Assembly: GCA_951406725.2 (NCBI GenBank)
Contig: OX597816.1
Location: forward strand, 136,338,001 to 136,402,000
Source of the DNA: Octopus vulgaris
Lineage: Eukaryota
DNA length: 64,000 nucleotides
Reading direction: 5' to 3'
The position numbers and the translations under genes were made by a program. The notes under the pieces were generated by a model. That model made no database searches, was not told the DNA's origin, and saw only the letters and a program-made list of their open reading frames with translations. Position 1 is the first letter of the stretch. The number at the start of each line of letters is the position of its first letter. This document shows, in pieces, positions 353 through 42,229 of this stretch.

Positions 353-477
353 AAATAAATATATATATATATATATATTGATAAAACGGTAAGATAACAA
401 AAGAAAGAAAGAGACCTCAATATTATGTAAATAGAGGAAATTTATCTATACAATATGTTACATTACTCGGTAGTCAA

Positions 478-538
478 GATAAAACTCTGAGTTTCAGATG
501 CCGAAGTGGAAATCCACAACACCATCTCTTCGGTTATC
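478..538 (-). ncRNA. Hammerhead ribozyme-like motif (type I, minimal) in Penelope 3' region
   Basis: Reverse complement of 1318-1378. Confidence 0.65.
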
Positions 539-1317
539 TGGCTATTTGAAAACGTTATGAAAAAATACCGTTAAAAATGAAGGGAAATTACTCTGTTATA
601 ACTCTGCTTTGCCTGCGTACTTATACATCGCTCGCATTTTTCGTCATAAAAATTATATAAAAATACATAAAAAATATATAAAAATATATAAAAATATATA
701 AAATCTTCTTGGGACATAACACAGAAAGCATGTTCTATCCGTTTTCTTTAGGGGACCAAAAACGTAACAGAAATTTAGTCACATGTGGGCATGATCCGAA
801 AAGTTCTGTCCTTGTATTTAGACATGTGGTAGGGTCTAAGCTGCTTTTCCAGATAAGCCATCTCTCCATGTCGCATAAACCGCACCTTCCGCTGCCGTTA
901 GTATAGGGCTTACATCTGGCCAATGGAAGATTTTGGCCAGATGTAAGCCCTATACTAATGGCAGCGGAAGGTGCGGTTTATGCGACATGGAGAGATGGCT
1001 TATCTGGAAAAGCAGCTTAGACCCTACCACATGTCTAAATACAAGGACAGAACTTTTCGGATCATGCCCACATGTGACTAAATTTCTGTTACGTTTTTGG
1101 TCCCCTAAAGAAAACGGATAGAACATGCTTTCTGTGTTATGTCCCAAGAAGATTTTATATATTTTTATATATTTTTATATATTTTTTATGTATTTTTATA
1201 TAATTTTTATGACGAAAAATGCGAGCGATGTATAAGTACGCAGGCAAAGCAGAGTTATAACAGAGTAATTTCCCTTCATTTTTAACGGTATTTTTTCATA
1301 ACGTTTTCAAATAGCCA

Positions 1318-1378
1318 GATAACCGAAGAGATGGTGTTGTGGATTTCCACTTCGGCATCTGAAACTCAGAGTTTTATC
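1318..1378 (+). ncRNA. Hammerhead ribozyme-like motif (type I, minimal) in Penelope 3' region
   Basis: GATAA-CCGAAGA-GATG...CATC-T-GAAACTC-A-GAGT-T-TTATC: stem I GATAA/TTATC, core CYGANGA + GAAA, near-palindromic stem III. Confidence 0.65.
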
Positions 1379-1408
1379 TTGACTACCGAGTAATGTAACA
1401 TATTGTAT

Positions 1409-1468
<60 letters not shown>

Positions 1469-14027: not shown

Positions 14028-14063
14028 ATATATATATATATGTGTGTATGTATGTATTTATAT

Positions 14064-14275
14064 GGATAGAAATGGTAAGACAACAAAAGAATGAAAGAGA
14101 CCTCGATATGTAAATAGAGGAATTCATCTGTAAATATATGTGACAATTATTTGGTAGCCATCAAAAATATTTTTTTGATGGCCTGATAACTGAAGAGATG
14201 CCAGTCCCCCATAACTGAAGGGTTTCTGCTCCGTCATCCAAAACTCAGATGTCACATAATTATATTTACAGATTT
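14064..14275. mobile_element. Degenerate mini fold-back of the hammerhead-bearing Penelope terminus
   Basis: Minus arm of the 21.5 kb family tail, central hairpin gccatcaaaaa-ta-tttttttgatggc, plus arm gataactgaagagatg...aaactcaga...tttacagat. Confidence 0.65.
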
Positions 14276-14315
14276 ATATATACATACATATATATATATA
14301 AGTACTATCAATATA

Positions 14316-15419: not shown

Positions 15420-15471
<52 letters not shown>

Positions 15472-15520
15472 TATATATAGATATAGATATATATATAGAT
15501 ATAGATATATATATAGATAT

Positions 15521-15557
<37 letters not shown>

Positions 15558-15586
15558 TATAGATATATATATATAGATATATATAT

Positions 15587-15643
<57 letters not shown>

Positions 15644-15648
15644 GATAT

Positions 15649-15747
<99 letters not shown>

Positions 15748-15790
15748 TATAGATATATATATATAGATATAGATATATATAGATATAGAT
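15420..15790. repeat. (TA)n/(TAGA)n compound microsatellite, continuing at 16515-16890 after a LINE insertion
   Basis: Directly visible; source of the poly-YI ORFs. Confidence 0.95.
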
Positions 15791-15791
15791 A

Positions 15792-16515
15792 AAGCTGGGC
15801 TACACATATAAGCAGCAAAGTTGACATGGCCCGCAGAATGTGTTCCTGGATTCTCAGAACCTTCCAGTCGAGAGATTCCCACGCTATTATCCTTCTCTTC
15901 TCCACTTTTGCCCAACCCCACCTTGAATACTGCTGTCCACTGTGGTCTCCCTACACAAAACAAAATATTATGAGAATTGAAGCTCCCCAAAGGTCAATCA
16001 CAAAAAAGATAGATGGCATGTCAGACCTTGACTACTGGGGTAGACTAGAGAAGCTGAAATTGTATTCACTCCAACGACGCCGTGAACGCTACATTATCTG
16101 TATGATGTGGAAAATATTCCACCAGCACTGTCCGAATGATGTTGGCATCACCTTCAAAATGCATCCAAGGCTTGGACCACGTGCCATCCGTCCACAACAA
16201 AAATCTAAATCGCATCACATAACGACAATACGGCACAACTATTTCACCTCAATTGGACCTGCTCTCTTCAACATTACACCAGGGCATGTCAAAAAAGAAA
16301 CTGACCACACAAAATTCAAGAAGTCTTTGGACAAATTCCTTCAAACAGTACCGGACAAACCACCCACACCCGGATATGTCTCCGCAAACAATAACTCTCT
16401 GCTCGAATGGGCCTTGGTGCCCAAATCCTGAACTGAAAGACTTCACCAGGTGGTGCTATTAAGTTAGACATGGCCTGGGCCAATACTGGCCAAAACCTTT
16501 CTAAGTTATTCTAAG
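15792..16515 (+). mobile_element. 5'-truncated CR1-type LINE (second family), RT C-terminus + 3' UTR
   Basis: ORF 15826-16431 WILRTF...[12 protein letters not shown]...LKLYSLQRRRERY; ends in (ttctaagtta)x2; inserted within a (TA)/(TAGA) tract. Confidence 0.88.
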
Positions 16516-16703
16516 TTATATATATAGATATAGATATAGATAGATATAGATATATATAGATATATAGATATATATATATAGATATATAGATATATATATA
16601 GATATATATATAGATATATATAGATATATATATATATATAGATATAGATATATATATAGATAGATATATATATAGATATATAGATATATATATATATAGA
16701 TAT

Positions 16704-16790
<87 letters not shown>

Positions 16791-16793
16791 TAT

Positions 16794-16866
<73 letters not shown>

Positions 16867-16899
16867 TATATATAGATATAGATATAGATACATCCATAT

Positions 16900-17140
16900 A
16901 CATACAATAGAGAGATGTTTTTGTTTCACTTTTAACACGTAATACTGAAATAGTGGAGAAGATATGGTACTGCTGTGGGCTCGCTCTAGGCAAGAAGTTA
17001 AACATTTTTTTTTGCCCAGGATACTGCATGGACCCTAAGTAAGGCATGTGTAAAATTTGAATGAAATTGGTTGTGTAGTTCTCAAGTTTTAGGGAAACAC
17101 ACAGACAGACACACACACATTCTCAGTTTTATATATATAG
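16900..17140 (-). mobile_element. Non-autonomous Helitron/Helentron-like fragment
   Basis: Minus strand tatatataaaactgagaatgtgtgtgtgtctgtctg...ccaatttcattcaaattttacac resembles the 5' part of non-autonomous rolling-circle elements; a similar + strand piece starts ~17423. Confidence 0.45.
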
Positions 17141-18689: not shown

Positions 18690-19330
18690 AGAAATTATTT
18701 GAATCTAAAAGTAATCCTTCATCTAGCTCAGGATTGGGATGGTTTGAAGATGATTTCTGGTCTAATGTGAGGGATGTGAAATTTCACCGTTCACCCCTAG
18801 GGAGTGGACATCTGAGGTGTCTTTGCTGTATCACCAGGGGAATTCATGGCATGGATAGTATACTGGTTCAATCAGATAAAGTGAGAAGCCTGTGCAAGCT
18901 TGCCAGGGGCTATTACTTAGAACTGCTTGGAAGAGGAATTCAAAAAAACTGTGGGGGTGCACTTGGGGGAGCCAACCTTGAGGCTGGGAGGGTTATGGAG
19001 AAGTGTAGCTTGCAGATGAGGACAGAGCCACTTGATCCTAAGCAACCTAGTTTTGTTTTAAAAGATCATAAACAAAGTTTTTTTGATAACCCATCCTTGC
19101 AACTTGTCTGTCCTTCTGGCTCTGGTATCGGTGTACTTGGTGAAAATGTTCTGGATGAATGTATTTCTACCTTGGTTGAGGAATTGGAGTTTAGTTTGTG
19201 GTCCAAGTCATTGACTGCTTTAGTTCTACTGCTGATAAGAGGAGCACTGAGTTTGTCCAGTTTGACATTTCTAGTTTCTATTCCTCCATTGGCCCAGTTG
19301 TGCTTGGTGGGGCACTCTCACTGGATCACT
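18690..19330 (+). pseudogene. Naiad-type Penelope RT N-terminal fragment, apparently A-to-G hypermutated
   Basis: Motifs FEDD..KF, V.SDK, LKDHK..F.DNP, QFDI..FY.SI...AL recognisable; one frameshift near 19200; many expected Lys/Asn/Tyr/Ile positions read Gly/Glu/Ser/Cys/Val. Confidence 0.85.
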
Positions 19331-19349
19331 GTGTATATATATATATCTA

Positions 19350-20943: not shown

Positions 20944-21061
20944 AACTTACTTGGAAAAGGAGGATGCATGGCGTTCAATCATATAATAATATAAATAATA
21001 TATAAATATATGCATATATACATACATATATGTACATACCTACATATATATGTATATATAC

Positions 21062-21425
21062 ATGCATATATGGGTACAGGACATCAAAAAAAATGTTAAA
21101 CACAATGAGAAACGAAAATATAAAAACAAAAACATAGAAACAACCTTTTTTCAAACAACGAAAAAAAACAGAGTACAAGACATACAACAAAAGGAATATT
21201 CCCCCATCTTCAGTTGTCCCTGTTTCATCAACTCCGTGTTTTACCTTTGAAATGTGTTTTAGATGAAACAGGGACAACTGAAGAAGGGGAATATTCCTTG
21301 TGTTGTATGTCTTGTACTCTGTTTTTTTCGTTGTTTGAAAAGAAATTTTGTTTCTATGTTTTTGTTTTCATTTCTCATTGTGTTCAACGTTTTTTTTTTA
21401 TGTCTCCTCTACCCATATATGAAAC

Positions 21426-21428
<3 letters not shown>
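21062..21428. repeat. ~370 bp fold-back palindrome in TA-rich DNA, probably a Penelope terminal remnant
   Basis: atatatgggtacaggacat...cttcagttgtccctgtttcatc mirrored by gatgaaacagggacaactgaag...cccatatat; centre ~21245. Confidence 0.8.
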
Positions 21429-21468
<40 letters not shown>

Positions 21469-21472
<4 letters not shown>

Positions 21473-21764
21473 ACAATTATTCGGTAGCCATGATAAAACT
21501 CCGAGTTTCAGATGCCAAGGTGGAAATCCATGCCGCCATCTCTTCAGCTATTCCGGCCATCGGAAAAATACTTTCATAGCATTTTTCCGATGGCCAAGCT
21601 AACTGAAGAGATGGCGGCGTGGATTTCCACCTTGGCATCTGAAACTCAGAGTTTTATCATGGCTACCAAATAATTGTCACATATTACATATACAGATAAA
21701 TTCCTCTATTTACATAATATCAAGGTCTCTTTCATTCTTTTGTTGTCTTACCATTTTTATCAAT
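21469..21764. mobile_element. Mini fold-back of a Penelope terminus (two inverted hammerhead motifs); mirrored at 30661-30970
   Basis: Centre ggccatcggaaaaat-actttcatagc-atttttccgatggcc; each arm has CTGAAGA-GATG...CATC-T-GAAACTCRGAGTT-TTATC. Confidence 0.85.
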
Positions 21765-23982
21765 ATAAATATATATTTCACTGATTAATGTTATATACCA
21801 ATATAGCAATGTTTTTCATAAGCATAACAAACATTTGAAGATACTATCACTTTTAAATATATTTGTATAAATAATTTTATAGTTCTCATAAATATCATCT
21901 GAAACTTCAAAATACTCCACATATCTATTTCTGTTCAAAATACTAAATAAAGCATTTCCTTTCTTTAAATAAATCTGAAGGCAAGTTGATTTACTGTACA
22001 CTTAACAGAACGATTGACTATATATATTTTATAGGTAATTTGCAGAAGTATTTAGCATTATCAGATATTATCTACAGTATAACTAAGTCATTTACATGCA
22101 GTATACGGTCATTTTGTCATTATCTAGAATCTAATTATACATTATCTTTTTCTTAAATGTCAGATATGAAGACGCAGAGGCTACAGCGTAATAAACAAAA
22201 CAGTTAGAGATTTATTGCTAGTTTAACACAAGAAAAATTATGACCTTTAGAATGACATTATTTTCAGCCACACAATGTAGAATGTTATAATGTTGACTAC
22301 AACTAAATTGTATGTAAGTATGTATGTATGGTTCTCTTCTATTTCTAATTACTTGATATCTTCCTGTATGGAAGGAGCAGGTTTCTAACAAAAATACAAA
22401 GCTCTATTGTCGGAATGTAGAGAACAAAAAAAATTTACATTTTCAACTTGAGAAAATCCTTGAAAATTGTTACAGACTGTATTTTTAACGTGCAAGTTAG
22501 CTGGTTAATTCCATCTTCTCAAAAACCTCCGCTTATGATTGCCATTAAAACATTTAATGACTGTATATATGTCAGAGTTAACTATATGATATTTTTTAAT
22601 ACATTAGTATAACAGAAAATTCATTTCAGAGCAGATTATTTCAACAAATGAATTGTCAAACAACATGGAAAGAAAAGTACTAAATAGTTCTTTGACCAAA
22701 AGGAAGATAAAGGTGGGTCAACTTACAAAATATGGCTTAGCTTAGACAGCGTCACCCAGTGTTATAACAGTTCAAACAGCTGCAATTTATGCTTATCTGA
22801 AAAATATGATATTATAAATCATCTACACCATTCATAAGTAATAATAATAAAAGAATTAAGTTTATATTGTAACATGGTTCAATATTCTTGCAATTCCTTT
22901 TCAAGACATTGGTGAAGGTACACATGTGACACATCATATTTTCTTTTGAATTTCCAACTACTGTAAAATTCTGTTAAATATTAGTGTGTCCTCATTCTTT
23001 GGCACTAGTGGGAAGTATCTACACATATTTTTCACGTGCGTATCACTATGCGCCTTCACTAGTCAGTTAAGGTGAGACAGTGTCATGTGACAACTTGCTG
23101 GGGCTGCCTGCTGGAGTCTATGCGGCAGGTATTTAAAGGGAGAAATTTGACAAGGCAAGAGGCCAGGGAATAGAGGAAAGAAGACGTGCACCCAACACCA
23201 GAGCTGAAGACACCTCCGAAAGTGGGGGCCCTGCCACATTAAAACGGTAGAGGAGTAGGGGCTGAAACCGGACATGGTTCCTCCTGATGATGTCTTGAGC
23301 TAACTGGATCCTATAAAAGAGCTGTTGTGGTAGCAGACCACGAAACACGGTTGTAATTCCCCCCAGGTAAATGTAAATGGAATGGTACTGGTGTGGCTGT
23401 GTGGCTAAGAAGTTCACTTCCCAAGTACATCGACTTTCTGGTTCAGACCTACTAAGTGGCACCATAGGCAGGTGTCTTTTATATAGCCTTGACTGACCAA
23501 AGCCTTGTGAGGAATTTGATAGATGGTAATTGAAAGAAGCTTATCATGTGTGTTTGTGTGTGTATATATATATAATTTAGAGAAAAACCTCTACTAAACA
23601 ATTCAATAATGAAAGATGTTATTCACATCATATAGAAAACATATACTATAAAAACCTAATTCTAAAAATCAATAACATACAAAAACAGAAATCCTTCGAT
23701 ATAAGTTATGTTTTTATTTTATATTGTTAAATGTTTTTCGATTATTTATAGTTAATACACATAATTTTCTATATTTATTTGATAATTAGTATAAGTTAAG
23801 ATAAAAGCATATTTATTCTATTATTATTTTTTATTATTATTATTTTAGACCTGATGAGTGACTATATTTTTAAATAGAATTAATTTTAGATCGAATTGAT
23901 TTTATTATTATTATATTATGATTCAAGTATTATCTGATAGTTGATGAATGATTTAGATATATTTCTCCATTTTCTCATTTTG

Positions 23983-24029
<47 letters not shown>

Positions 24030-24084
24030 ATGTATATATACATATATGTATATAAACATATATGTATAACAACATATATGTATA

Positions 24085-24392
24085 TACTGGCTTCTAGGCC
24101 GGTGGCACATAAAAAGCACCATCCGAACGTGGCCAATGCCAGCGCCGCCTTGACTGGCTTCTGTGCTGGTGGCACATTAAAAGCACTAACCAATCGTGGC
24201 TGCTGCCAGACTCCCCTGGCACCCACTACACTCACAGAGTGGTTGGCATTAGGAAGGGCATCCAGCTGTAGAAACACTGCCAGATCAGACTGGAGCCTGG
24301 TGCAGCCTCCTGGCTTCCCAGACCCTGGTTGAACCGTGCAACCCGTGCTAGCACGGAAAATGGACGTTAAACGATGATGATGATGATGATGA
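24085..24392 (+). mobile_element. RTE-type LINE 3' UTR with (GAT)n tail; mirrored at 28030-28340
   Basis: gccggtggcacataaaaagcacc...aggaagggcatccagctgtagaaac...ggacgttaaacgatgatgatg, shared with the RT-bearing copies at 45.7-46.6, 48.5-49.7 and 60.7-61.5 kb. Confidence 0.8.
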
Positions 24393-24544
24393 TATATGTT
24401 ATGTATATATATATATATATATATGCACATAGATGTATGTATATATATGCACATATATGTATGTATATATATGCACATATATGTATGTATATATATACAC
24501 ATATATGTATGTATATATATATGTATATATATATATATACATAT

Positions 24545-26063
24545 ATTGATAAAACGGTAAGATAACAAAAGAAAGAAAGAGACCTCAATATTATGTAAAT
24601 AGAGGAAATTTATCTATACAATATGTTACATTACTCGGTAGTCAAGATAAAACTCTGAGTTTCAGATGCCGAAGTGGAAATCCACAACACCATCTCTTCG
24701 GTTATCTGGCTATTTGAAAACGTTATGAAAAAACCGTTAAAAATGAAGGGAAATTACTCTGTTATAACTCTGCTTTGCCTGCGTACTTATACATCGCTCG
24801 CATTTTTCGTCATAAAAATTATATAAAAATACATAAAAATACATAAAAATATATAAAAATATATAAAATCTTCTTGGGACATAACACAGAAAGCATGTTC
24901 TATCCGTTTTCTTTAGGGGACCAAAAACGTAACAGAAATTTAGTCACATGTGGGCATGATCCGAAAAGTTCTGTCCTTGTATTTAGACATGTGGTAGGGT
25001 CTAAGCTGCTTTTCCAGATAAGCCATCTCTCCATGTCGCATAAACCGCACCTTCCGCTGCCGTTAGTATAGGGCTTACATCTGGCCAAAATCTTCCATTG
25101 TATGTTATAATCGACACCTTTATCTCTTAAAGACCAAATATGATTGGATAATTGTGTCGCTTTTCTTTTGTTCCAGTGCCTAAAGCTCAAAGTGTGGTTA
25201 TTGAACCTGGCCTTGAAATTACCCTCTGTCAGGCCCACGTATTTCTTCGTCAAAACGGTGTCTTTAGTGGTTATAGAGTTTACGGTAGCTTCATATATGA
25301 TGGTCTTGGACATGCAAGCTCCATTTAGCGGGCACAATTCTTTATTCCTGCATGAACAGCTGTTTTCTTCTTGTGTTTTTTGTATGTTATGATTGATTAT
25401 GTTTTTAAAATTGGTAGTTGAACTAAAACTAATTTTTAAATTGTGTCTATTGAAGAGTTTCCTATAAGCATGGTTAACTGGAAAATGTCTATCTATCAGT
25501 GCTAGGAAATATTTACCTATATTGAAGGCCACCTCGGGTGAGTAAGGGGCGTAAACCAGATGACCTTCCTATTTCTATTATTCCTTTTCCTTATTGTTGG
25601 GCTGGTGATAGGTGTATATTTTATTTTTTCGCTAAAACCACTATCTTTTAAAGCTTTATTATAAACTGGGGCAACGCTATTGAAGATGTCCTCATTAGAT
25701 GAGAGGCTAGAAATCCTCTTACTAATATTTTTAACTAAATTTTTGAATACTATAGGGGGATGGCATGAACCTACATTAATATAACTTAGTCTATCATTGG
25801 GCTTCCTATAAGGCTTATAAATATTATTATTAAGATCTAAGGAAACGTCTAAGAAATTGACAACCGTCAGGTTAGTGTCTATAGTTATACTAAGTCCGAA
25901 GTGTTTCATTAACTGGATAATATCCTTCCTAAAACGATCTTGTGCTGGTCCATTTGTATTAGCTGTTAAGGCGAGGGCATCATCTTTGTAGATGGCGAAA
26001 TGTACGTTAGGGAATGCCTTACTGAAGGTATCTAGGAGAAAGAGTCCAATTAGATCACAGATG
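24545..26063 (-). mobile_element. Naiad-type Penelope-like element, 5'-truncated (RT C-terminal half + GIY-YIG endonuclease + hammerhead terminus), left arm
   Basis: ICDLIGLFLL...IYKDDAL...VNFLDVSLDL...YRKPN; CSCRNKELCPLNGAC linker; IIYEA...KYVGLT GIY-YIG; CGLC knuckle; one -1 frameshift at ~25546 (WFTP[P]YS); hammerhead motif at 24646-24706. Confidence 0.93.
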
Positions 26064-27590
26064 ATGGGGCAGGCATCTGTGATCTAATTGGACTCTTTCT
26101 CCTAGATACCTTCAGTAAGGCATTCCCTAACGTACATTTCGCCATCTACAAAGATGATGCCCTCGCCTTAACAGCTAATACAAATGGACCAGCACAAGAT
26201 CGTTTTAGGAAGGATATTATCCAGTTAATGAAACACTTCGGACTTAGTATAACTATAGACACTAACCTGACGGTTGTCAATTTCTTAGACGTTTCCTTAG
26301 ATCTTAATAATAATATTTATAAGCCTTATAGGAAGCCCAATGATAGACTAAGTTATATTAATGTAGGTTCATGCCATCCCCCTATAGTATTCAAAAATTT
26401 AGTTAAAAATATTAGTAAGAGGATTTCTAGCCTCTCATCTAATGAGGACATCTTCAATAGCGTTGCCCCAGTTTATAATAAAGCTTTAAAAGATAGTGGT
26501 TTTAGCGAAAAATAAAATATACACCTATCACCAGCCCAACAATAAGGAAAAGGAATAATAGAAATAGGAAGGTCATCTGGTTTACGCCCCTTACTCACCC
26601 GAGGTGGCCTTCAATATAGGTAAATATTTCCTAGCACTGATAGATAGACATTTTCCAGTTAACCATGCTTATAGGAAACTCTTCAATAGACACAATTTAA
26701 AAATTAGTTTTAGTTCAACTACCAATTTTAAAAACATAATCAATCATAACATACAAAAAACACAAGAAGAAAACAGCTGTTCATGCAGGAATAAAGAATT
26801 GTGCCCGCTAAATGGAGCTTGCATGTCCAAGACCATCATATATGAAGCTACCGTAAACTCTATAACCACTAAAGACACCGTTTTGACGAAGAAATACGTG
26901 GGCCTGACAGAGGGTAATTTCAAGGCCAGGTTCAATAACCACACTTTGAGCTTTAGGCACTGGAACAAAAAAAAGCGACACAATTATCCAATCATATTTG
27001 GTCTTTAAGAGATAAAGGTGTCGATTATAACATACAATGGAAGATTTTGGCCAGATGTAAGCCCTATACTAACGGCAGCGGAAGGTGCGGTTTATGCGAC
27101 ATGGAGAGATGGCTTATCTGGAAAAGCAGCTTAGACCCTACCACATGTCTAAATACAAGGACAGAACTTTTCGGATCATGCCCACATGTGACTAAATTTC
27201 TGTTACGTTTTTGGTCCCCTAAAGAAAACGGATAGAACATGCTTTCTGTGTTATGTCCCAAGAAGATTTTATATATTTTTATATATTTTTATATATTTTT
27301 ATGTATTTTTATATAATTTTTATGACGAAAAATGCGAGCGATGTATAAGTACGCAGGCAAAGCAGAGTTATAACAGAGTAATTTCCCTTCATTTTTAACG
27401 GTTTTTTCATAACGTTTTCAAATAGCCAGATAACCGAAGAGATGGTGTTGTGGATTTCCACTTCGGCATCTGAAACTCAGAGTTTTATCTTGACTACCGA
27501 GTAATGTAACATATTGTATAGATAAATTTCCTCTATTTACATAATATTGAGGTCTCTTTCTTTCTTTTGTTATCTTACCGTTTTATCAAT
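26061..27590 (+). mobile_element. Naiad-type Penelope-like element, right arm
   Basis: In frame from 26063: DGAGICDLIGLFLLDTFSKAFPNVHFAIYKDDAL...; same frameshift as the left arm plus two extra 1-nt losses in A-runs (~26510, ~26970). Confidence 0.93.
27429..27489 (+). ncRNA. Hammerhead ribozyme-like motif in Naiad 3' terminus
   Basis: Identical to 1318-1378; predicted cleavage after GUU at ~27484. Confidence 0.65.
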
Positions 27591-28394
27591 ATATGTATAT
27601 ATATATATATACATATATGTATACATATATGTATGTATATATACATATATGTATACATATATGTATGTATATATGCATATATGTATACATATATGTTTGT
27701 ATATATACATATTTGTATACATATATCATCATCATTGTTTAGCGTCCGCTTTCCATGCTAGCATGGGTTGGACATATGTATATATATATATGTATATATA
27801 CATATATATGTGTATATATATGTATTCAATCCAAACACTAACAAGCAAGAGAAAAGAACAATGCGAGGGCATGGAATAAGTACAGTGTTATTGGATGCTT
27901 AGGAAAGGAAAGAAAAGAAAGAGGATTTCATGTTTCGAGCAGAGCTCTTCATCAGAAATATAGAAAAAGTCCATATATATATGTGTGTGTATATGTACAT
28001 ATACACATATATATATGTATATATACATATATCATCATCATCATCATCATCGTTTAACGTCCATTTTCCGTGCTAGCACGGGTTGCACGGTTCAACCAGG
28101 GTCTGGGAAGCCAGGAGGCTGCACCAGGCTCCAGTCTGATCTGGCAGTGTTTCTACAGCTGGATGCCCTTCCTAATGCCAACCACTCTGTGAGTGTAGTG
28201 GGTGCCAGGGGAGTCTGGCAGCAGCCACGATTGGTTAGTGCTTTTAATGTGCCACCAGCACAGAAGCCAGTCAAGGCGGCGCTGGCATTGGCCACGTTCG
28301 GATGGTGCTTTTTATGTGCCACCGGCCTAGAAGCCAGTATATACATATATGTTGTTATACATATATGTTTATATACATATATGTATATATACAT

Positions 28395-28433
<39 letters not shown>

Positions 28434-30870
28434 ATATACAAAATGAGAAAATGGAGAAATATATCTAAATCATTCATCAACTATCAGATAATACGGAATC
28501 ATAATATAATAATAATAAAATCAATTCGATCTAAAATTAATTCTATTTAAAAATATAGTCACTCATCAGGTCTAAAATAATAATAATAAAAAATAATAAT
28601 AGAATAAATATGCTTATCTTAACTTATACTAATTATCAAATAAATATAGAAAATTATGTGTATTAACTATAAATAATCGAAAAACATTTAACAATATTTC
28701 TTAAAATAAAAACATAACTTATCTTATCGAAGGATTTCTGTTTTTGTATGTTATTGATTTTTAGAATTAGGTTTTTATAGTATATGTTTTCTATATGATG
28801 TGAATAACATCTTTCATTATTGAATTGTTTAGTAGAGGTTTTTCTCTAAATTATATATATATACACACACAAACACACATGATAAGCTTCTTTCAATTAC
28901 CATCTATCAAATTCCTCACAAGGCTTTGGTCAGTCAAGGCTATATAAAAGACACCTGCCTATGGTGCCACTTAGTAGGTCTGAACCAGAAAGTCGATGTA
29001 CTTGGGAAGTGAACTTCTTAGCCACACAGCCACACCAGTACCATTCCATTTACATTTACCTGGGGGGAATTACAACCGTGTTTCGTGGTCTGCTACCACA
29101 ACAGCTCTTTTATAGGATCCAGTTAGCTCAAGACATCATCAGGAGGAACCATGTCCGGTTTCAGCCCCTACTCCTCTACCGTTTTAATGTGGCAGGGCCC
29201 CCACTTTCGGAGGTGTCTTCAGCTCTGGTGTTGGGTGCACGTCTTCTTTCCTCTATTCCCTGGCCTCTTGCCTTGTCAAATTTCTCCTTTAAATACCTGC
29301 CGCATAGACTCCAGCAGGCAGCCCCAGCAAGTTGTCACATGACACTGTCTCACCTTAACTGACTAGTGAAGGCGCATAGTGATACGCACGTGAAAAATAT
29401 GTGTAGATACTTCCCACTAGTGCCAAAGAATGAGGACACACTAATATTTAACAGAATTTTACAGTAGTTGGAAATTCAAAAGAAAATATGATGTGTCACA
29501 TGTGTACCTTCACCAATGTCTTGAAAAGGAATTGCAAGAATATTGAACCATGTTACAATATAAACTTAATTCTTTTATTATTATTACTTATGAATGGTGT
29601 AGATGATTTATAATATCATATTTTTCAGATAAGCATAAATTGCAGCTGTTTGAACTGTTATAACACTGGGTGACGCTGTCTAAGCTAAGCCATATTTTGT
29701 AAGTTGACCCACCTTTATCTTCCTTTTGGTCAAAGAACTATTTAGTACTTTTCTTTCCATGTTGTTTGACAATTCATTTGTTGAAATAATCTGCTCTGAA
29801 ATGAATTTTCTGTTATACTAATGTATTAAAAAATATCATATAGTTAACTCTGACATATATACAGTCATTAAATGTTTTAATGGCAATCATAAGCGGAGGT
29901 TTTTGAGAAGATGGAATTAACCAGCTAACTTGCACGTTAAAAATACAGTCTGTAACAATTTTCAAGGATTTTCTCAAGTTGAAAATGTAAATTTTTTTTG
30001 TTCTCTACATTCCGACAATAGAGCTTTGTATTTTTGTTAGAAACCTGCTCCTTCCATACAGGAAGATATCAAGTAATTAGAAATAGAAGAGAACCATACA
30101 TACATACTTACATACAATTTAGTTGTAGTCAACATTATAACATTCTACATTGTGTGGCTGAAAATAATGTCATTCTAAAGGTCATAATTTTTCTTGTGTT
30201 AAACTAGCAATAAATCTCTAACTGTTTTGTTTATTACGCTGTAGCCTCTGCGTCTTCATATCTGACATTTAAGAAAAAGATAATGTATAATTAGATTCTA
30301 GATAATGACAAAATGACCGTATACTGCATGTAAATGACTTAGTTATACTGTAGATAATATCTGATAATGCTAAATACTTCTGCAAATTACCTATAAAATA
30401 TATATAGTCAATCGTTCTGTTAAGTGTACAGTAAATCAACTTGCCTTCAGATTTATTTAAAGAAAGGAAATGCTTTATTTAGTATTTTGAACAGAAATAG
30501 ATATGTGGAGTATTTTGAAGTTTCAGATGATATTTATGAGAACTATAAAATTATTTATACAAATATATTTAAAAGTGATAGTATCTTCAAATGTTTGTTA
30601 TGCTTATGAAAAACATTGCTATATTGGTATATAACATTAATCAGTGAAATATATATTTATATTGATAAAAATGGTAAGACAACAAAAGAATGAAAGAGAC
30701 CTTGATATTATGTAAATAGAGGAATTTATCTGTATATGTAATATGTGACAATTATTTGGTAGCCATGATAAAACTCTGAGTTTCAGATGCCAAGGTGGAA
30801 ATCCACGCCGCCATCTCTTCAGTTAGCTGGCCATCGGAAAAATGCTATGAAAGTATTTTTCCGATGGCCG

Positions 30871-30931
30871 GATAGCTGAAGAGATGGCGGCATGGATTTC
30901 CACCTTGGCATCTGAAACTCGGAGTTTTATC
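30871..30931 (+). ncRNA. Hammerhead ribozyme-like motif with canonical CUGAAGA box
   Basis: GATAG-CTGAAGA-GATG...CATC-T-GAAACTC-G-GAGT-T-TTATC; a sister motif lies at 21598-21658. Confidence 0.68.
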
Positions 30932-30966
30932 ATGGCTACCGAATAATTGTCACATATTACATTTAC

Positions 30967-31021
<55 letters not shown>

Positions 31022-31029
31022 CACTCACA

Positions 31030-32437
31030 CAAGGCGGGTACTGAAAAGATCCTGGTTTTGGGTAAAAGAAAATTCAGGCGGATCAGTTATTTATGAGTTT
31101 ATCAAACATAGTTGGAAAATTGGGAGAATGGCTTCATGACTTTCTGAAGAATAGAAGTCAGGTGGTAGCAGCCAATGGGGCCACTTCCATTAACACACAA
31201 ATAGTGAGCGGTGTTCCGCAGGGCACTGTTTTGGGACCACTACTGTTCATAATGGCCCTCTCAGACATGCCCTCAGCCACGCAGAGAGCCACGATCACAA
31301 GTTATGCAGATGATACAAAAGTTTCACAGGCAATACAGAACCCTGAAGACACTAAGCACCTGCAATGTGAGCTGGACGAAATATACAAGTGGGCTGAAAA
31401 GAATAGCATGCAGTTCAATGCTGAAAAGTTTCAAGCTTTATACTATCAGCATGCAAAACTAAATGCAATACCCAATGAATACACTGGACCCGGAGGAATA
31501 GCAATCCCAGAGGCACAATCAGTGCGTGACCTGGGTATTTACATGAGTGATGACGCAACCTTTCGTGTTCATGTTGCTAAATTGGCAATGAAATGTAGAC
31601 GACTGGCCGGATGGATTCTCAGAACCTTTAGAACAAGAGAACAAGAAACCATGATGGTCCTCTGGAGGACACTTGTCCTAAGCCACTTTGACTATTGCTC
31701 TCAGTTATGGTCACCATCCAGTGTCAAGTTGATCACAGAGCTCGAGGCGATCCAGCGTAGCTACACGAAGAAGATAGCCTCTATGCAGAATGTAAGCTAC
31801 TGGGAAAGACTCAAGAGATTAAAACTATATTCCTTGGAGCGTAGGCGGGAAAGATATGCCATAATATACATCTGGAAGATCCTGGAGGGACATGTCCCAA
31901 ACTTTGGCATCGAGAGTTACACAAATGCCAGAACTGGGCGCCACTGCGTGGTGCCTAGGACTCCAAATTTGCCATCTAGATGTAGGACAAGATACTGTGA
32001 TAGCCTGGGCTTCCGTGGCACACAGCTCTTCAATATCCTCCCGAAGAACCTGAGAGACCTGCATGGGGTGGATGCAGATGTCTTTAAAATGGAACTGGAT
32101 CTCTTCCTGTCAGGTGTCCCAGATGAACCAACTTCACGGCAGGAGGTGCAGATGAGGGCAGCTGCATCGAACTCTCTCATGCACCAAATGGCAGTTGCTA
32201 AAAAGCTTTTGTGAAGTAAAACCAAGTTGCAACACCAAATGGCGGTGCCCCAGCATGGCCACAGCTCATGAGCTGAAACTAGAATCAATCAATCAATCAA
32301 TTCTTCTCTCAGATTCACACACTTATTGCAGCAGTTCTTCAGTTTTTCTAAGCCCTATAAAAGAACTCGGAAGTTTAGACCTCCAACCAGGCCTTTTGTA
32401 ATATCCTTAAAGCCAGAAACTTTTCAATACTACCTTG
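31030..32437 (+). mobile_element. Tc1/mariner-like MITE split by a CR1 insertion (pieces ~31030-31100 and ~32300-32437); uninterrupted relative at ~34124-34315
   Basis: tactgaaaagatcctgg... and ...ccagaaacttttcaatac ends; the two pieces join into the 34124 sequence (ggatcagttaattatgattttactcaacatattcccctctcagattcacac). Confidence 0.7.
31100..32300 (+). mobile_element. Young 5'-truncated CR1-type LINE, RT domain open (ORF 31093-32214)
   Basis: SGVPQGTVLGPLLF, YADD, MQFNAEKF, VRDLGI, HFDYCSQLWSP, LYSLERRRER; (AATC)n tail; the ORF's ATG derives from the host MITE. Confidence 0.93.
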
Positions 32438-32560: not shown

Positions 32561-35157
32561 CACACATACATTCATACATACATACATACACACACACACA
32601 CATACATACACACATGCACACATATACACACAATACTTTTTATCCTTTCAGGTTTGGTTGGGCCTCCAACCAGGCCTTTCACAAAACCCTTAAAGCCAGG
32701 ACGTTTTCAGCACCCACTTGTGTGCGTGTGTGTGTGTACACATGTATTCTCTTTCCCTGTCTCCCCACCCAGAAAACCCAGGCCCCTTCCACAAACTTAT
32801 AGTTACCCCACCACCCTTGTTTTATCAATCTCTCACTCCCCCTCCCATATTCTTGCAGCCTTTAACCCCCACCCTTAGTCTCCCTGTCACTGAATCTCTC
32901 CATCCTTCTCCAATCCACTGTATTAATCTGGTGCTGTAAGTAATGGAATTTGAGCCCATTACTACAAAGCTTTTCATATTACCAATTTTGTACTACCACT
33001 CACTACTCCCTTTTCTCTGAGCTACTCACTGTTGACATCTGTCCATCATTCCTAACATCCCCCCCCACTCGTATTTTCGATCACTTACCCCCACCTTTGT
33101 TCACCATTAACTACATTCACTTCCTATATACATCTGACCACCTCCACTCTATATTTATATCCATCTTTCACTCTTATCTAACACTCTTGCCACCTAACCC
33201 ACCTCTGCTGATTCTCCTACCTCCATGCTCCCTTGTAGTCGTCTTATACATATCTCCTTGCCTTCATATTCTGGTACCATGTCACCCCCACATTTATCTC
33301 CCTTTGTGGCACATCTCAAGCCATGCCATTCACCCATGTTAAAATGTGAAGTATCCACGAATTTCTTCTACTGTAAATTTACCTCTACTTTTATCCTATA
33401 TTAACATCTGAACACCTTGTGTAAGCAACTACTGTATCTCCTATTCCTCCTCTCTGTTGGGGATCTTAAGTCATGCAAGTTACAAGGCAGCCTTGCTAGT
33501 ACTGGTATCATAGGAAAAGCACCTAGTACACTCTGTAAGGTGGTTGGTGTTGAGAAGAGTTTCTTATTGTAGAAATCTTGCCAAAACTAAGACTGGAGAG
33601 AGACATGGTCCTAGGATCTATTGGATCCTGTTTTACTGTCCAGAATGGAAAACAGATGTAAAAATGAATATAATACTCTTTTTACTCTTTTACTTGTTTC
33701 AGTCATTTGACTGCGGCCATGCTGGAGCACCGCCTTTAGTCGAGCAAATCGACTCTGGGACTTAGTCTTTGTAAGCCCAGTACTTATTCTATCGGTCTCT
33801 TTTGCCGAACCGCTAAGTGACGGGGACGTAAACACACCAGCATCGGTTGTCAAGCAATGCTAGGGGGACAAACACAGACACACAAACACACACACACACA
33901 CACATATATATATACATATATATGACAGGCTTCTTTCAGTTTCTGTCTACCAAATCCACTCACAAGGCATTGGTCGGCCCGGGGCTATAGCAGAAGACAC
34001 TTGCCCAAGATGCCACGCAGTGGGACTGAACCCAGAACCATGTGGTTGGTTAGCAAGCTACTTACCACACAACCACTCATATATATATATATACACACAC
34101 ACACACATACACACACACACACATACGATGGGCGCTGAAAAGTTCCTAGCTTGAGTAAAAGAAAATACTGGAGGATCAGTTAATTATGATTTTACTCAAC
34201 ATATTCCCCTCTCAGATTCACACTCTTATTGCAGCAGTCCTTCGGTTTTTCTAAGCCCTGTAAAAGAAATAGGAAGGTTGGGCCTCTAACCAGGCCTTTC
34301 ACAATTCCCTTAAAGTGTATGTGTTTGTAAATTTGCAGTCTGTGTCCCTCCACCCAAAACAAATCATAACAGGTTGTAATAAGTAAGCTGTAAAGGTGAA
34401 AGACGAAAAAAGGTAAGGTAAGAAAGGAGTGTGACAGAGAAAAAAAAAAAGAGGAAGCAAATGGGGAAGGGTTGGAGGGCAATAAAAAGAATGGATGAGA
34501 GAGACAGACAGACTGAGTAAGTGAAAAAATTAGTGGGTGGTCATCAGATTACATTTACATCTCATTTACATATGTGTACTCTACTATATATATCTATCAA
34601 AAGATTACACACCACATGCAAACATAGATAAGATTCTATAAACATGTGAACATATACTGTCTGTGCACACTCATCTATCAATAGATTGTCCACAATACAC
34701 ACTTATACAGACAAAATATTTATGTACATTAGAGGCAGACATGGTAAGAAGCTTGCTTCCCAACCATATGGTTCACAGTTTAACCACACTGCTTGGCACC
34801 TTGGGCAAGTGTCTTCTACAATAGCCTTGGGACAACCGAAGCCTTGTGAGTGGATTGGATTTGGTAGATGAAAACTGAAAGAAGCCCAACGTATATATAT
34901 ATATATAACAATTGCAGTGTGGAAGGTGTTTATAAGCCATTTAAGAAACACACAAAACTGTTAGATTCACTTCAACATTTAAATTTAATTTGTCAAAATA
35001 TTTCCGTCGCTTTGAGACCGCAACCTGTTCACTGACAAAGCGTTGTGCTGCACAAAGGTCGCGGTCTTCCATGCTGCAATTGTTTTCATTCTAGCACATG
35101 ATCTCAGATCAAGTCACTCGTTTTGCAAGTACATCTTCGTAATATATATATATATAT

Positions 35158-35570
35158 AAGAAAAATAAGAAAATAGAGATAAATGAATTAATAATTATAT
35201 TTATTCATTTCAACAATAGACATAATCTCTGACAATTGTTTGATTCAAACTTTAGAAATTAATTAAAATAATTAAATCATTAGAAAGTTGAATCTCGTCG
35301 GAGGTAGAAAAACAATATACCATTACATTATATTTCTATGTGTTAAGTGTACGGAGCATACCACTGCTCCGTACACTTAACACTTAAAAAATATAAAAAT
35401 GTAATAGTATATCTTTTTCTACTTCCAACGAGGTTCAACTTTATAATGATTTAATTATTTTGATTAATTTCTAAAGTTTGAATTGAAACAACTGTCAGAG
35501 ATTATGCCTATTTTTGTAATTAATAAATATAATTATTAATTGATTTATCTCTATTTTCTTAATTTTCTTA
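35158..35570. mobile_element. Fold-back palindrome of another hammerhead-bearing (Penelope-type) terminus
   Basis: Perfect core gtgttaagtgtacggagca-taccac-tgctccgtacacttaacac; the arm consensus gives CCGACGA-GATTCAA...TTGAATC-GAAAC-AATT-GTC; TA flanks. Confidence 0.8.
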
Positions 35571-35711
35571 AATAGATATCAACCTTGGTTTATTTAATTA
35601 CTTTATTTTTTAATATTAAATCTAATATTCAAAATAAATAATAGGTAATAAACCTGTAAATTCATTGGATATTATTATCCCTTAACGAGGTATTTAACCT
35701 TTAATTGAACT

Positions 35712-36504: not shown

Positions 36505-37152
36505 CACACACATCATCACAGGTAAATCATAATACACCTTCAACACTCATATTAGTTCAGATTATTTTGTATATAATTGAGAATATTTATAATTTTTTAT
36601 GTATTTTATGTCACCAACGTATACAAAGAAAATTTTATTGCTGTTTTCCACAATACCTGGAATTTCACATGCATGTGTATATGTGTGTGTGTGTGAATGT
36701 TGAATGTGTGTATGTGTGTGTGTGAATGTTGAATGTGTGTGTGTGTGCACGCACACACATGATGTTTTTTGGCAGGTGTTACTAGTTGTAATTAGACTTT
36801 TGAAACAATTAGTCTACTTTAACTCTGTTGAACTTTGAACTTTTTCTTTTCTTTTGACATACATCTAAAAAAATACGTATGCACATACCAAAGAGACACT
36901 CAAATAAACATAAAGACATACTCATTCACAACAAAGCTTGTCATTATCCTTATTAGCTTCTTTCTTAGACATTCTTATTTAACTCTGTTACATCAGCCAT
37001 GCTGAGTTCTTTACTTTATGATCTAATGAGTAACAAGCTTGCTGTTCTGTATCTTGATGAAATGAAGTCTCCCCAATTTTCCTAAAACACTCAATTACTT
37101 TTATAAACAAACTGCAATGATTTGATAGGCAGTGCTGAGTTTTACAAATTTG

Positions 37153-37453
37153 TAAATAATAACAATAATATTTTATAAGCTTACAGCTTATAAACAATCA
37201 CCATGCATTGACCAAGGTAAATAGTCTAATATTTGGGCATATAAGCCCTTGATGGAAAAAAGTGGGTTTATCAAACACACGGGACTCACACCCACACCTC
37301 TGTTTTCAAGTGTGCTACGATTACACCAGAAAACCTACTTTTTTTTTTTCATTGAGGGCTTATATGCCCCAATATTAGACTAGTGTCTTTAGTTAATACA
37401 CAGTGATTGCTTATAAGCTTTAAGCTTATAAAACTTAATTGTTTATTGTTTAC
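37153..37453. repeat. Degenerate fold-back palindrome
   Basis: ttataagcttacagcttataa...tagtctaatatttgggcatataagccct mirrored by agggcttatatgccccaatattagacta...ttataagctttaagcttataa. Confidence 0.75.
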
Positions 37454-39205: not shown

Positions 39206-40049
39206 AAAAACAAGATAATAAAATATTGATATATCTTGCAATATCAGAAATGTCAAAGAGAAAATAAAAGTATGAAATAATAGTTCATCATTCATATATC
39301 ATAAGTAATATTAATGAATTAACTTTAATTACTTGCAAATATCTAGTAAATAATTAATTATCTTTATATCAAAGCATATTTTGGAAAATACTAGATTTCA
39401 TCTTTGTATTCAAACTTTTGATTAAGACTGTACATGAAACTTAAACACATGCATACATATGCTTCCGCAGATGTATGTAAATGCAGAAATGTGTACATAC
39501 ACAGGAAAATGTATGCACATATTTAAAGAAATTATTGACATTGTTAATTCAACTAAAGTTATTTGAATATTCATTTAAGCTATGAAACAAGAATTTTTGT
39601 TTACAATGAATTCTCTCTGTCAGTAGGATGGGTAGTAAGCTGGTATAGATGTATGCATATTCAGAATTGTGTTTGCTTGTATTTAAATATCGTATTTGTT
39701 ATGTTTACAATGTTGACTATCATTAAGTTAGTGCTAATGTTTACATTTAATCCACTTAATAAGGAAATCCTCTCAAAAATTTTTTATTAGCATTAACTCC
39801 TCAAAATGATTTTTTTATGCAAATCTGTTTCTTGTTGAGGCATGTCATATTTTATTATAAGGCAACATGACTCATTAAAAATACTAATTATATTTTTTGG
39901 TAGATAATTAACATCATGACAGAAACAACCATGAAATTTAATTATGCAGAGCAGTTTGAGGGTTAAGCCAAATTTCTTTAATATTTATATTGAATACTTT
40001 GTACATCTGTCCATGGTATGACTGCTCCTATTTTATGAAATTAATATAT

Positions 40050-40870
40050 TTTCATCTCTGTAACTTCCAGAAATATGGGATAGTGTACTTTCTGAATATA
40101 TCATAAGAAACCAACCCAACAAGTTCAGCCACTTTAGCTCTATTATACCTCCCCATGGAGATGTAGAACAAAGCATCACCTTCCCTTTCAACCCAGTAGG
40201 AATTATCATGGAACAACAGTGACTTTCTAGCAGTCATTGTTATTCTGGTGTCTAGATCATTAATTATAATGAATCATTTCTCAAAATCCAGGGTTTAAAG
40301 TGGGGGGAGATTCATAAATCATTAATGTTGTTATACAAGCTTTCTCAACTGGAGATTTAGATATAGAACAATAACAGTCAACAATATTGAATTAGGTGAA
40401 TCTGCCAGAGAATTTGTTTTCAGTACCATGACATCCACTTGAGGACAGTAGTACTGCAGTTCCGTTATTCCAGTCTTGTGATACTTATAATTTTGAGGTT
40501 AACTAAGTTGAAAATATGCTTGCAAATTCTTCCCATTTTACTTATGCTGAGTTGATTATCCTAGTTTGAAGTTGAAGAGGAAGTTAGCCTTATGATCCTT
40601 AAAGGTAAAGTAGCTTGTATGCATATCAAGACTGTCCATGTGGACATCTCTTTCTAATTGGGAAACTAATTCATTCTCCTCTGTATTTATGATACTCTTT
40701 GTAGTGGGGTTGTTTTATATATATATATATATATCAGTGATGATGTTTGTCTGGAGTTTAAAGTTCATGGTCTTGTTCAGATTGTGTAAATTCTTTGTTT
40801 TACCTGAAAGTATATGGTCATTTGGGAATTATCATTTGAAGAGTTTTGTATAGTTATTCAAACTGTTTTA
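40050..40870 (-). pseudogene. Old degenerate Naiad-type Penelope RT fragment
   Basis: ARKSLLFHDNSYWVEREGDALFYISMGRYNRAKVAELVGL and upstream T.KDHK.NF...RII match Penelope RT motifs. Confidence 0.75.
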
Positions 40871-42229
40871 GAAAGAACTATTAATATAATGAAATCTTAC
40901 ATTTTTAAAAATGGGCTGGTGAAGATAAATGCGAACTTTTCAACGCCCTTTATTTTTCCTGTGTAATGCGGTGACTTCCATGTTTTGGATTTGTAATTGT
41001 GTTGATATCCCAGTAGTTTCCCTTCCATGGAAAAAAGGTTTCCAACACATGTACTTGATAATGCTTTCTTCTTCTACACACACATACACACACGCATTCT
41101 TCAAAGAATCAAAGATGGTTTACCTCACCATCTTCAGTTATTTATTGTTATTTTGTAGATAGGGCTCAACAAAATTGGAATAAGTATACTTATGTAAGTA
41201 TGCTTATGAACAAGAGTAAAGAAAAGCACTCAATACATAGCGTGGGATTTACACTTATTGAAGGAACACAGCTGGTAATTCACACCATTGTTATTTGGAG
41301 TTTCTCATGCAAAAAGTTTTTAAATTATTGACAAAACAGTATGTAGTAAATACAAATTATATTCACAAACTACAAGGCAGATTGTTTCTCATCAGTGAAA
41401 ATGAGTCATATAATCAAATTTATTGCTGAAGGTTACTGTACTACTATAATATAAATGAAGACTACCAAATCAAACACGTTGTCAAGGACAGCTGCTCTAT
41501 GATACTTGTGAAATTCACTGGCTATGAATTTGAGTTAGTGGGAGTTGAGCATGTAGGCATATGGTAGCAGACGCCCAGAAGAAACTTCTGAAAACAACAA
41601 TTGGACAATGCTTCTGACTAGTAGTTAAAGATTAGCATTGGCTGCTTTAACATCTAGAGCTTTTTCGTTAGACAAAACCATAAGTTTTATCGTTTGAAGT
41701 AAAGAACAGCTTTAAAGAAAATTGTTGATGTCCTTGAATTTCTTGACAAATTGGGATAATTTGATCTAAATGAATGAAGATGCTGACAATAGTGACACTT
41801 AGAAGTCCACAGTGGAGTTTCCTGTGATTCTATCAACACTAAGGATGTCATAGATGTTCAATATACAAGTACATTTGAAAAACAGAATCTCCTGACTGGG
41901 CAATTTGAGAGATTTCAACAGCACAAGTTGGCTTTCAACAAGATTTCAACAGCACAAGTACTGGTGACATGGGAACTGATGCTGTCCTGGCAAGAATAGC
42001 TACCTTAATTATATACATGTCAAAAAGGTTAGTATATTTGTGTATCCTGGAAAACGTCGTTTTTCTAGAGATAGAAAGTTTCTGGCAGTGTTTATAGTAT
42101 CATCCAAGTTATATGGTGAAGTAAATCAGATTCCTTTCTTCTAGCTTCTATTCTGGTGTGGGATGGGTTTGTTGTTCACTAGATACACTAATGTCTCACT
42201 TGGGCTGTTTCTAGTTAGCTTTTCAGAAT

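What the first reader, a model, noticed from the sequence alone, without database searches (positions are those of the whole stretch)
21469..30970. Penelope fold-back insertion at the centre of a 9.5 kb palindrome that duplicates ~3 kb of flanking DNA
Seen: mirror symmetry continues ~3 kb beyond the element, through unique DNA, SINE and RTE pieces, and stops in (TA)n at both ends. The 10-nt loop is sense-strand RT sequence of the right arm. Inference, model 1: cDNA primed at ~27590 snapped back, and second-strand synthesis ran through the cDNA into the attached flank before rejoining the left (TA)n, so the retroelement generated an inverted segmental duplication. Model 2: 3' transduction of a read-through RNA ending in the second hammerhead terminus at ~30.9 kb. 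Model 3: assembly artefact. Arm differences I could see are mostly small indels in homopolymers, which fits sequencing error and keeps model 3 alive.
Basis: partly seen in the sequence, partly recalled or inferred. Interest (0 to 1): 0.82.

Follow-up and report, generated by a model that had tools for sequence, protein, structure and literature searches.

The report
Penelope fold-back inside inverted flank duplication
An ordinary young Penelope-type jumping gene sits here as a 3-kb mirror-image insertion, and a separate 2.9-kb inverted copy of neighbouring DNA lies about 150 bases from it, likely made by repair synthesis that switched templates at TA repeats, though an assembly error is not excluded.

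Summary
The palindrome is in the sequence, but it is two nested inverted repeats, not one mirror. The inner one (24547-27588) is a 5'-truncated Hydra-clade Penelope-like element folded back around a 10-nt loop of RT coding sequence, which is the standard insertion form. The same self-complementary 30-mer flanks it on both sides. Symmetry then breaks: 117 nt on the left face 406 unrelated nt on the right. It resumes for 2.93 kb (21469-24399 versus 28025-30958). A run-through second strand (model 1), a 3' transduction (model 2) and a plain fold-back read all predict a mirrored spacer, so none fits as stated. The left 2.93 kb is the derived copy: it stops 11 nt short of a canonical element end, has short TA microhomologies at both junctions, and is bracketed by a repeated ATG(TA)nTG run. 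Most likely (0.45), repair synthesis promoted by the insertion's break or hairpin switched templates twice. A composite assembly artefact remains plausible (0.35), because no reads were aligned. LINE-1 is already reported to leave inverted duplications near insertion sites; my searches found no Penelope case. Interest 0.33.

The parts
21426..21470 (+). Left ATG(TA)nTG run: outer junction of the duplicated segment; 5-nt microhomology ATATG with the inside of the old element end
   Evidence: junction print-out, TA-run contexts
21469..24399 (+). U: derived inverted copy of 28025-30958 (2931 nt)
   Evidence: 1 substitution + 9 indel events versus the right copy; outer end 11 nt short of the canonical element end
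21469..21776 (.). Copy, inside U, of an old short fold-back of a sister subfamily (B), truncated at its outer end
   Evidence: 87.8% self-inverted, 83% to the young family's terminus
23384..23574 (+). Dispersed SINE-like repeat inside U (mirror copy 28852-29042); the SINE label is recalled, not from a library
   Evidence: several 74-79% copies elsewhere in the window
24085..24392 (+). Dispersed SINE-like repeat with (ATG)n tail at the inner end of U (mirror copy about 28033-28339)
   Evidence: 74-84% copies elsewhere in the window
24400..24516 (+). S_L: non-mirrored left spacer; second ATG(TA)nTG run plus 24-mer microsatellite array; inferred native left flank of the insertion
24517..24546 (.). 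T, left copy: 30-nt self-complementary sequence (target-site duplication or 30-nt mirror overshoot; the two cannot be told apart)
   Evidence: occurs only at 24517 and 27589 in the window
24547..26063 (-). Left arm of the Hydra-clade element: RT C-terminal half, linker, GIY-YIG, 3' terminus with tail
26064..26073 (+). 10-nt loop, sense RT coding sequence
26074..27588 (+). Right arm of the element; two extra 1-nt deletions break the frame; one further frameshift is shared by both arms
27426..27490 (+). Hammerhead-like motif in the 3' terminus (core CCGAAGA...GAAA; mirror copy near 24701 on -)
   Evidence: pattern scan; not matched by Rfam; full three-way fold not predicted
27589..27618 (.). T, right copy
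27619..28024 (+). S_R: non-mirrored right spacer (32-mer microsatellite, 47-nt SINE-tail piece, 147-nt fragment unique in the window, TA blocks)
28025..30958 (+). U': inferred native 2.93-kb segment, template of the duplication; 11-nt TA microhomology at 28018-28028
30649..30969 (.). Old short fold-back of sister subfamily B, complete, ending at the canonical tail-less end
30970..31017 (.). (TA)n run to the right of the structure
377..1411 (.). Second young fold-back copy of the same family (99%), tail on one arm only; used as internal control

Best explanation
A young Hydra-clade Penelope-like element sits as a 3.04-kb fold-back palindrome in a TA-rich microsatellite, and a separate 2.93-kb inverted copy of its right-hand neighbourhood lies 147 nt to its left, likely made by repair DNA synthesis that switched templates twice at TA microhomologies. 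Shown: the nested structure, the non-mirrored spacer, the 30-mer on both sides, the unequal outer ends and the junction microhomologies. Inferred: (1) the ancestral locus was X-ATG(TA)nTG-S_L-T-S_R-U'-Y. (2) The element inserted at T by target-primed reverse transcription, truncated, and was copied back on itself. (3) During or soon after this, the bottom strand was single-stranded and folded, helped by the element's own 1.5-kb stem. Its 3' end, 117 nt beyond the stem in the TA run, primed on the same strand near 28018-28028, copied 2.93 kb, and returned to the TA run through a 5-nt match 11 nt inside the old element end. The order of steps 2 and 3, and the polymerase, cannot be read from the sequence.
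For: Symmetry ends 30 nt outside the element and resumes only at 24399/28025; the spacers are 147 versus 436 nt. The right arm's outer end is the family's tail-less end, seen also in the copy ending at 1411 and the old copy near 14275, while the left arm lacks its last 11 nt. U has an extra base at 2 of 2 sites where family copies give the ancestral length. U is bracketed by ATG(TA)nTG on both sides, a context found in 5 of 48 TA runs including these two. Both pairs of arms are equally young, with 1 substitution each, against 79-88% self-identity for the old fold-backs. The spacer holds 166 of 3028 TA-rich bases of the window, so finding one of the two young insertions in it by TA targeting alone is roughly a 1-in-10 event (my arithmetic). 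Only this one of 9 palindromic elements tested has mirrored flanks. Precedents: inverted duplications near LINE-1 insertions (bioRxiv 10.1101/2024.12.14.628481) and large-loop fold-backs in yeast (PMC7467729).
Against: No read, depth or empty-allele evidence was obtained. The microhomologies are TA-rich and cheap: the 11-mer occurs 8 times in 24300-31100, three of them inside the right spacer and nearer the element than the site used. The two bracketing TA runs differ in length (41 versus 21 nt) and the inner junction carries unexplained extra bases. Kinship of S_L with the right microsatellite is not beyond chance: longest shared word 21 nt, against 26, 22 and 21 nt for unrelated TA blocks among 24 blocks compared; polar k-mers 13 direct versus 8 inverted at k=10. 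An indel-dominated difference spectrum fits consensus error. In the LINE-1 cases the duplication is of the end being remodelled and uses a small hairpin, a different geometry.
Confidence: 0.45

Rival explanations
1. Composite assembly artefact. The animal has X-S_L-T-element-T-S_R-U'-Y with one copy of the 2.93 kb. Fold-back reads at the element's palindrome seeded a false left arm, true reads overwrote the spacer during consensus, and the contig was joined to X at a TA run.
For: Arm differences are nearly all indels. U deviates from the family at 2 of 2 polarisable sites. Both junctions of U lie in TA runs. Fold-back artefact reads are about 0.55-0.6% of nanopore genomic reads (PMC12870357), and complex PLE insertions are known to trouble assemblies (PMC8557442).
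Against: A plain fold-back read would mirror S_R and continue into the mirror of Y; neither is seen. The window has no N gap. The join to X has a 5-nt microhomology 11 nt inside the element end, far below the overlap that long-read assemblers need (general knowledge). The element's right arm also carries errors or mutations (2 frameshifts), so deviation is not confined to the left side.
Confidence: 0.35
2. Real inverted duplication, independent of the element. A break in the TA run folded back over a spacer of about 550 nt and copied 2.93 kb; the element landed in the spacer by TA preference, before or after.
For: Same junction evidence as the best explanation. Hydra elements target (TA)n (PMC8557442 section 11).
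Against: Needs two rare, equally young events within 150 nt; chance co-location is about 1 in 10 given TA targeting.
Confidence: 0.12
3. One reading: second-strand synthesis ran continuously from the cDNA through 3.4 kb of attached flank; the left spacer was rewritten later.
For: Right arm is native. This insertion has the tail on both arms plus a mirrored 30-mer, whereas 3 of 3 other family copies examined have it on one arm only, so a 30-nt overshoot is possible.
Against: The 406-nt spacer is not mirrored and S_L has a clean 24-mer array with no source on the right. Rewriting it while the arms gained 1 substitution is implausible.
Confidence: 0.05
4. One reading: 3' transduction of a read-through RNA ending at the terminus near 30969.
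For: The right arm ends exactly at the tail-less end of a related element, which by analogy is an RT start site (PMC11167929).
Against: Spacer not mirrored. The terminus belongs to an old copy, 88% self-identical and 83% to the young family. S_L has no source. A donor locus could not be searched, as no genome is held.
Confidence: 0.02

Closest known systems
Hydra clade of endonuclease-bearing Penelope-like elements (Craig et al. 2021, PMC8557442; passages and section 11 read)
   Same: C-terminal GIY-YIG, CxCX5C linker, CxxC and CxH around conserved E and N, insertion into (TA)n, inverted 5'-truncated partner copy, optional tail.
   Different: Tail here is about 65 nt rather than 30-40 and is present on both arms; the hammerhead core is non-canonical (CCGAAGA, 31-nt spacer); a 30-nt self-complementary flanking duplication.
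Head-to-head Penelope insertions with palindromic junctions and host-DNA capture in Adineta vaga (Arkhipova et al. 2013, PMC3846280; passages read)
   Same: Inverted structure with a palindrome at the junction, explained by self-priming; AT-rich targets.
   Different: Captured host DNA there lies between pLTRs. Here the duplicated host DNA lies outside the element, on the opposite side from its template, behind a non-mirrored spacer.
Inverted duplications at LINE-1 insertion sites through remodelling of broken ends (bioRxiv 10.1101/2024.12.14.628481; passages and section 9 read)
   Same: Retroelement insertion with target duplication preserved and a local inverted duplication primed by short microhomology (TA/AT in one example).
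   Different: Somatic human cells and a different element class; small hairpins on the reciprocal end, versus a multi-kb loop and a copy placed across the insertion here.
Large-loop fold-back inversions in yeast (Li et al. 2020, PMC7467729; passages read)
   Same: Single-stranded DNA self-primes across loops up to thousands of nt; long stems channel breaks into fold-backs.
   Different: Yeast products are resolved by homology-mediated translocation. Here synthesis would return to the same locus after 2.9 kb.
Fold-back artefact reads in long-read data (PMC12870357; passages read)
   Same: Near-perfect inverted arms with indel-type differences.
   Different: A single fold-back read gives an exact mirror including the spacer and does not return to the opposite flank.

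Membership tests
Hydra-clade PLE | RT followed by C-terminal GIY-YIG endonuclease in one ORF | tested here: met
   Left arm aligns to residues 322-710 of a 713-aa relative with one frameshift. The GIY-YIG Pfam hit is weak and below cut-off (E 0.02).
Hydra-clade PLE | CxCX5C linker motif | tested here: met
   CSCRNKELC in the arm ORF; 15 of 25 relatives of 600 aa or more have it.
Hydra-clade PLE | CxxC and CxH around conserved E and N; CCHH motif absent | tested here: met
   CGLC..E, LN..., CPH in the arm ORF; no cysteine pair inside the nuclease core, by inspection of the alignment; definition.
Hydra-clade PLE | N-terminal RWK and DKT motifs | not testable with these tools
   This copy is 5'-truncated. 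Among relatives, DKT 19 of 25, DKG 0 of 25, RWK 7 of 25.
Hydra-clade PLE | Insertion into (TA)n | tested here: met
   Both young copies end in TA-rich runs.
Hydra-clade PLE | Canonical hammerhead ribozyme in the terminus | tested here: inconclusive
   Core-like motif with stems I and II, but CCGAAGA core, no Rfam hammerhead match among 139 listed hits and no significant fold (z -0.84).
Hydra-clade PLE | Placement in an RT phylogeny with reference Hydra sequences | not tested
   No named reference sequences were fetched; the paper's supplements were not read.
Standard PLE inverted insertion | Head-to-head 5'-truncated copies, 3' ends outward, optional tail | tested here: met
   described in PMC8557442 and PMC3846280.
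Retroelement 3' transduction | Flank contiguous with the element in the product, and a donor copy elsewhere | tested here: not met
   The left arm is not contiguous with the element; the donor could not be searched.
Microhomology-primed fold-back or template-switch duplication | Inverted copy, single-copy spacer, microhomology at both junctions | tested here: met
   the microhomologies are low-complexity, so weak.
Microhomology-primed fold-back or template-switch duplication | Copy-number gain and junctions present in real molecules | not tested
   No read or contig alignment was obtained for this locus.

The most novel reading that the evidence does not exclude
The long perfect hairpin that a Penelope/Hydra fold-back insertion creates folds the attached chromosome strand back on itself during integration, so host repair copies kilobases of flank to the far side of the insertion. 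In TA-rich animal genomes these elements would then be a recurrent source of local inverted segmental duplications.
Probability: 0.25. Interest if true: 0.6.

Novelty: new variant of a known kind. Interest (0 to 1): 0.33.

Why it matters
The inner palindrome is ordinary. If the outer duplication is real and caused by the insertion, it extends insertion-associated inverted duplication from LINE-1 in somatic cells to a Penelope-like element in an assembled animal genome. It also gives a countable signature: an inverted flank copy behind a short non-mirrored spacer, with a duplicated TA run. If it is an artefact, it shows that young fold-back elements can seed multi-kb false duplications in long-read assemblies. 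It is one locus without read support, so the weight is modest.

Tried and rejected
No whole genome is held, so copy number, donor loci and other insertion flanks could not be surveyed. No read or contig alignment was obtained, so depth, junction support and empty alleles are untested. The run search listed 24 runs: 20 hold part of the arm and 8, from 5 studies, hold half or more of its words. This shows the segment is real genomic DNA but says nothing on copy number. Rfam gave only hairpin-type sub-threshold matches and no hammerhead family. The homolog search among longer proteins found none; the near-length search found 4. The metagenome locus scan found no relative among 423 pattern matches. 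The polarity test linking S_L to the right microsatellite did not exceed background and is not used as support. A simple two-haplotype inversion mosaic was rejected on paper, because it would put the mirror of S_R next to U. The reverse polarity (left native, right copied) was rejected because the right arm has 11 nt that the left lacks. Earlier-finding look-ups by place, by long word list and by sequence returned nothing.
Full report
Observation. Self-alignment shows two inverted repeats that share a centre but are not contiguous. The inner one runs from 24547 to 27588, with a 10-nt loop at 26064-26073; its arms differ by 1 substitution and 2 indels in 1.5 kb. The outer one pairs 21469-24399 (U) with 28025-30958 (U'); these differ by 1 substitution and 9 indel events in 2.93 kb. 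Outside the element the mirror holds for exactly 30 nt. That 30-mer (T) is its own reverse complement and occurs only at 24517 and 27589, so it reads equally as a direct target-site duplication or as a short mirror overshoot. Beyond T the left side has 117 nt (S_L: a TA run and a 24-mer array), and the right side has 406 nt (S_R: a 32-mer array, a 47-nt SINE-tail piece, a 147-nt fragment found once in the window, and TA blocks).

The element. The loop and right arm read DGAGICDLIGL in frame. The left arm aligns to residues 322-710 of a 713-aa relative with a single frameshift that both arms share; the right arm has two more 1-nt deletions. The nuclease part has CxCX5C, CxxC..E and N..CxH motifs, which define the Hydra clade in Craig et al. 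2021 (PMC8557442; section 11 read). Of 25 relatives of 600 aa or more, 19 have DKT, none has DKG and 15 have CxCX5C. No tree was built. A hammerhead-like motif lies in the terminus, but Rfam did not call it and folding was not significant. An inverted 5'-truncated partner, an optional tail and (TA)n targeting are the described norm (PMC8557442, passages; PMC3846280, passages). A second 99% copy at 377-1411 has the same fold-back form. The family shows two 3' ends about 65 nt apart, like the two RT start sites found in vitro for a Poseidon element (PMC11167929, parts 1-2 of 4 read). The inner palindrome is therefore ordinary. The repeats look like those of octopus genomes; that is recall and was not tested.

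Which outer arm is the copy. U' ends at the tail-less end of an old sister-subfamily fold-back (30969), the same end seen at 1411 and near 14275. U stops 11 nt earlier. At 2 of 2 sites where other family copies give the ancestral length, U has an extra base. U is bracketed by ATG(TA)nTG on both sides, with ATATG shared at the outer junction and ATGTATATATA at the inner one. Removing U and one run gives X-ATG(TA)nTG-S_L-T-element-T-S_R-U'-Y, which I take as the underlying locus (inference). The caveats are real. That run context occurs in 5 of 48 TA runs, these two included. The 11-mer occurs 8 times in the region. The two runs are 41 and 21 nt long. S_L resembles the right microsatellite no more than some unrelated TA blocks do.

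Continuous run-through, 3' transduction and a plain fold-back read all predict that S_R is mirrored on the left. It is not, and S_L has no source on the right. Model 1 keeps a kernel of truth: the right arm is native, and this insertion has the tail on both arms, while 3 of 3 other family copies examined have it on one, so a 30-nt overshoot is possible.

Most likely mechanism. Shown: structure, ends and junction sequences. Inferred: a bottom strand that had passed through the element and S_L folded back, its TA-rich 3' end primed on the same strand near 28018-28028, synthesis copied 2.93 kb, and it returned to the TA run at the 5-nt match. The element's 1.5-kb stem would bring these two sites together, and its insertion supplies a break. 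Both arm pairs carry one substitution. The spacer holds 166 of 3028 TA-rich bases. Only this one of 9 palindromic elements tested has mirrored flanks; 4 of the 9 are unclassified palindromes and one has only 376 nt of left flank in the window. I put real-and-linked at 0.45 and real-but-independent at 0.12.

Artefact. No reads or contigs were aligned to the locus and no genome is held. The run search shows only that the segment is genomic DNA in 5 studies at half or more of its words; one may be the assembly's own source. A composite artefact is feasible: a fold-back read as backbone, the spacer overwritten by true reads, and a join at a TA run. Fold-back reads are about 0.55-0.6% of nanopore genomic reads (PMC12870357, passages), and the indel-dominated differences fit consensus error. 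Against it: the window has no gap, and the join to X has only a 5-nt match. I put this at 0.35.

Comparison and novelty. Inverted duplications near LINE-1 insertions, one primed by TA/AT, are reported in cell clones and tumours (bioRxiv 10.1101/2024.12.14.628481; passages and section 9), with a different geometry. Large-loop fold-backs are established in yeast (PMC7467729, passages). [quoted passage not shown] The library lacks most subscription papers, and no supplements were read; those of PMC8557442 may hold this family's consensus. Recently active Penelope-like insertions are reported in Octopus vulgaris (PMC13282606, passages). Earlier scan notes from other genomes also treat the head-to-head form as ordinary (unchecked).

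Verdict. This is a new variant of a known kind if real. Interest 0.33.

Noticed in passing
window 377-1411: Second young (99%) fold-back copy of the same family, 9-nt loop, tail on the left arm only; its centre has a 3-nt native stem (CAA/TTG) around the loop.
   Followed up: partly
window 24517-24546 and 27589-27618: The 30-nt flanking duplication is a perfect palindrome. Diagonal nicks at the base of a cruciform would give such a duplication; speculation, untested.
   Followed up: no
window 18734-19335, 39997-40708, 42045-42436: Older remnants of Hydra-type RT coding sequence found by tblastn with full-length relatives.
   Followed up: no
window 14051-14290: Decayed short fold-back of the sister subfamily B with the same two kinds of end.
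   Followed up: partly
window 4091-4271, 21022-21467, 35148-35579, 37152-37453, 43345-43496: Five further old palindromic elements, 71-87% self-identical, several next to TA runs; not classified.
   Followed up: no
window 27826-27972: Fragment unique in the window with a hammerhead-core-like motif on the minus strand (CTGATGA...GAAA); possibly the end of another Penelope-like family; fold not significant.
   Followed up: partly
window 31066-32214: Uninterrupted 382-aa LINE-type RT frame (Pfam RVT_1, E 8e-13) with related pieces at 1-350, 7025-7216 and 15793-16425.
   Followed up: no
window 15423-15791 and 16517-16904: Two very long TA/GA-interrupted microsatellites (about 370-390 nt) flank a LINE fragment on both sides.
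   Followed up: no
window 44754-45167: Tandem array of a 62-nt G+C-rich unit, 6.5 copies, related to the SINE-like repeat inside the duplicated arm.
   Followed up: no
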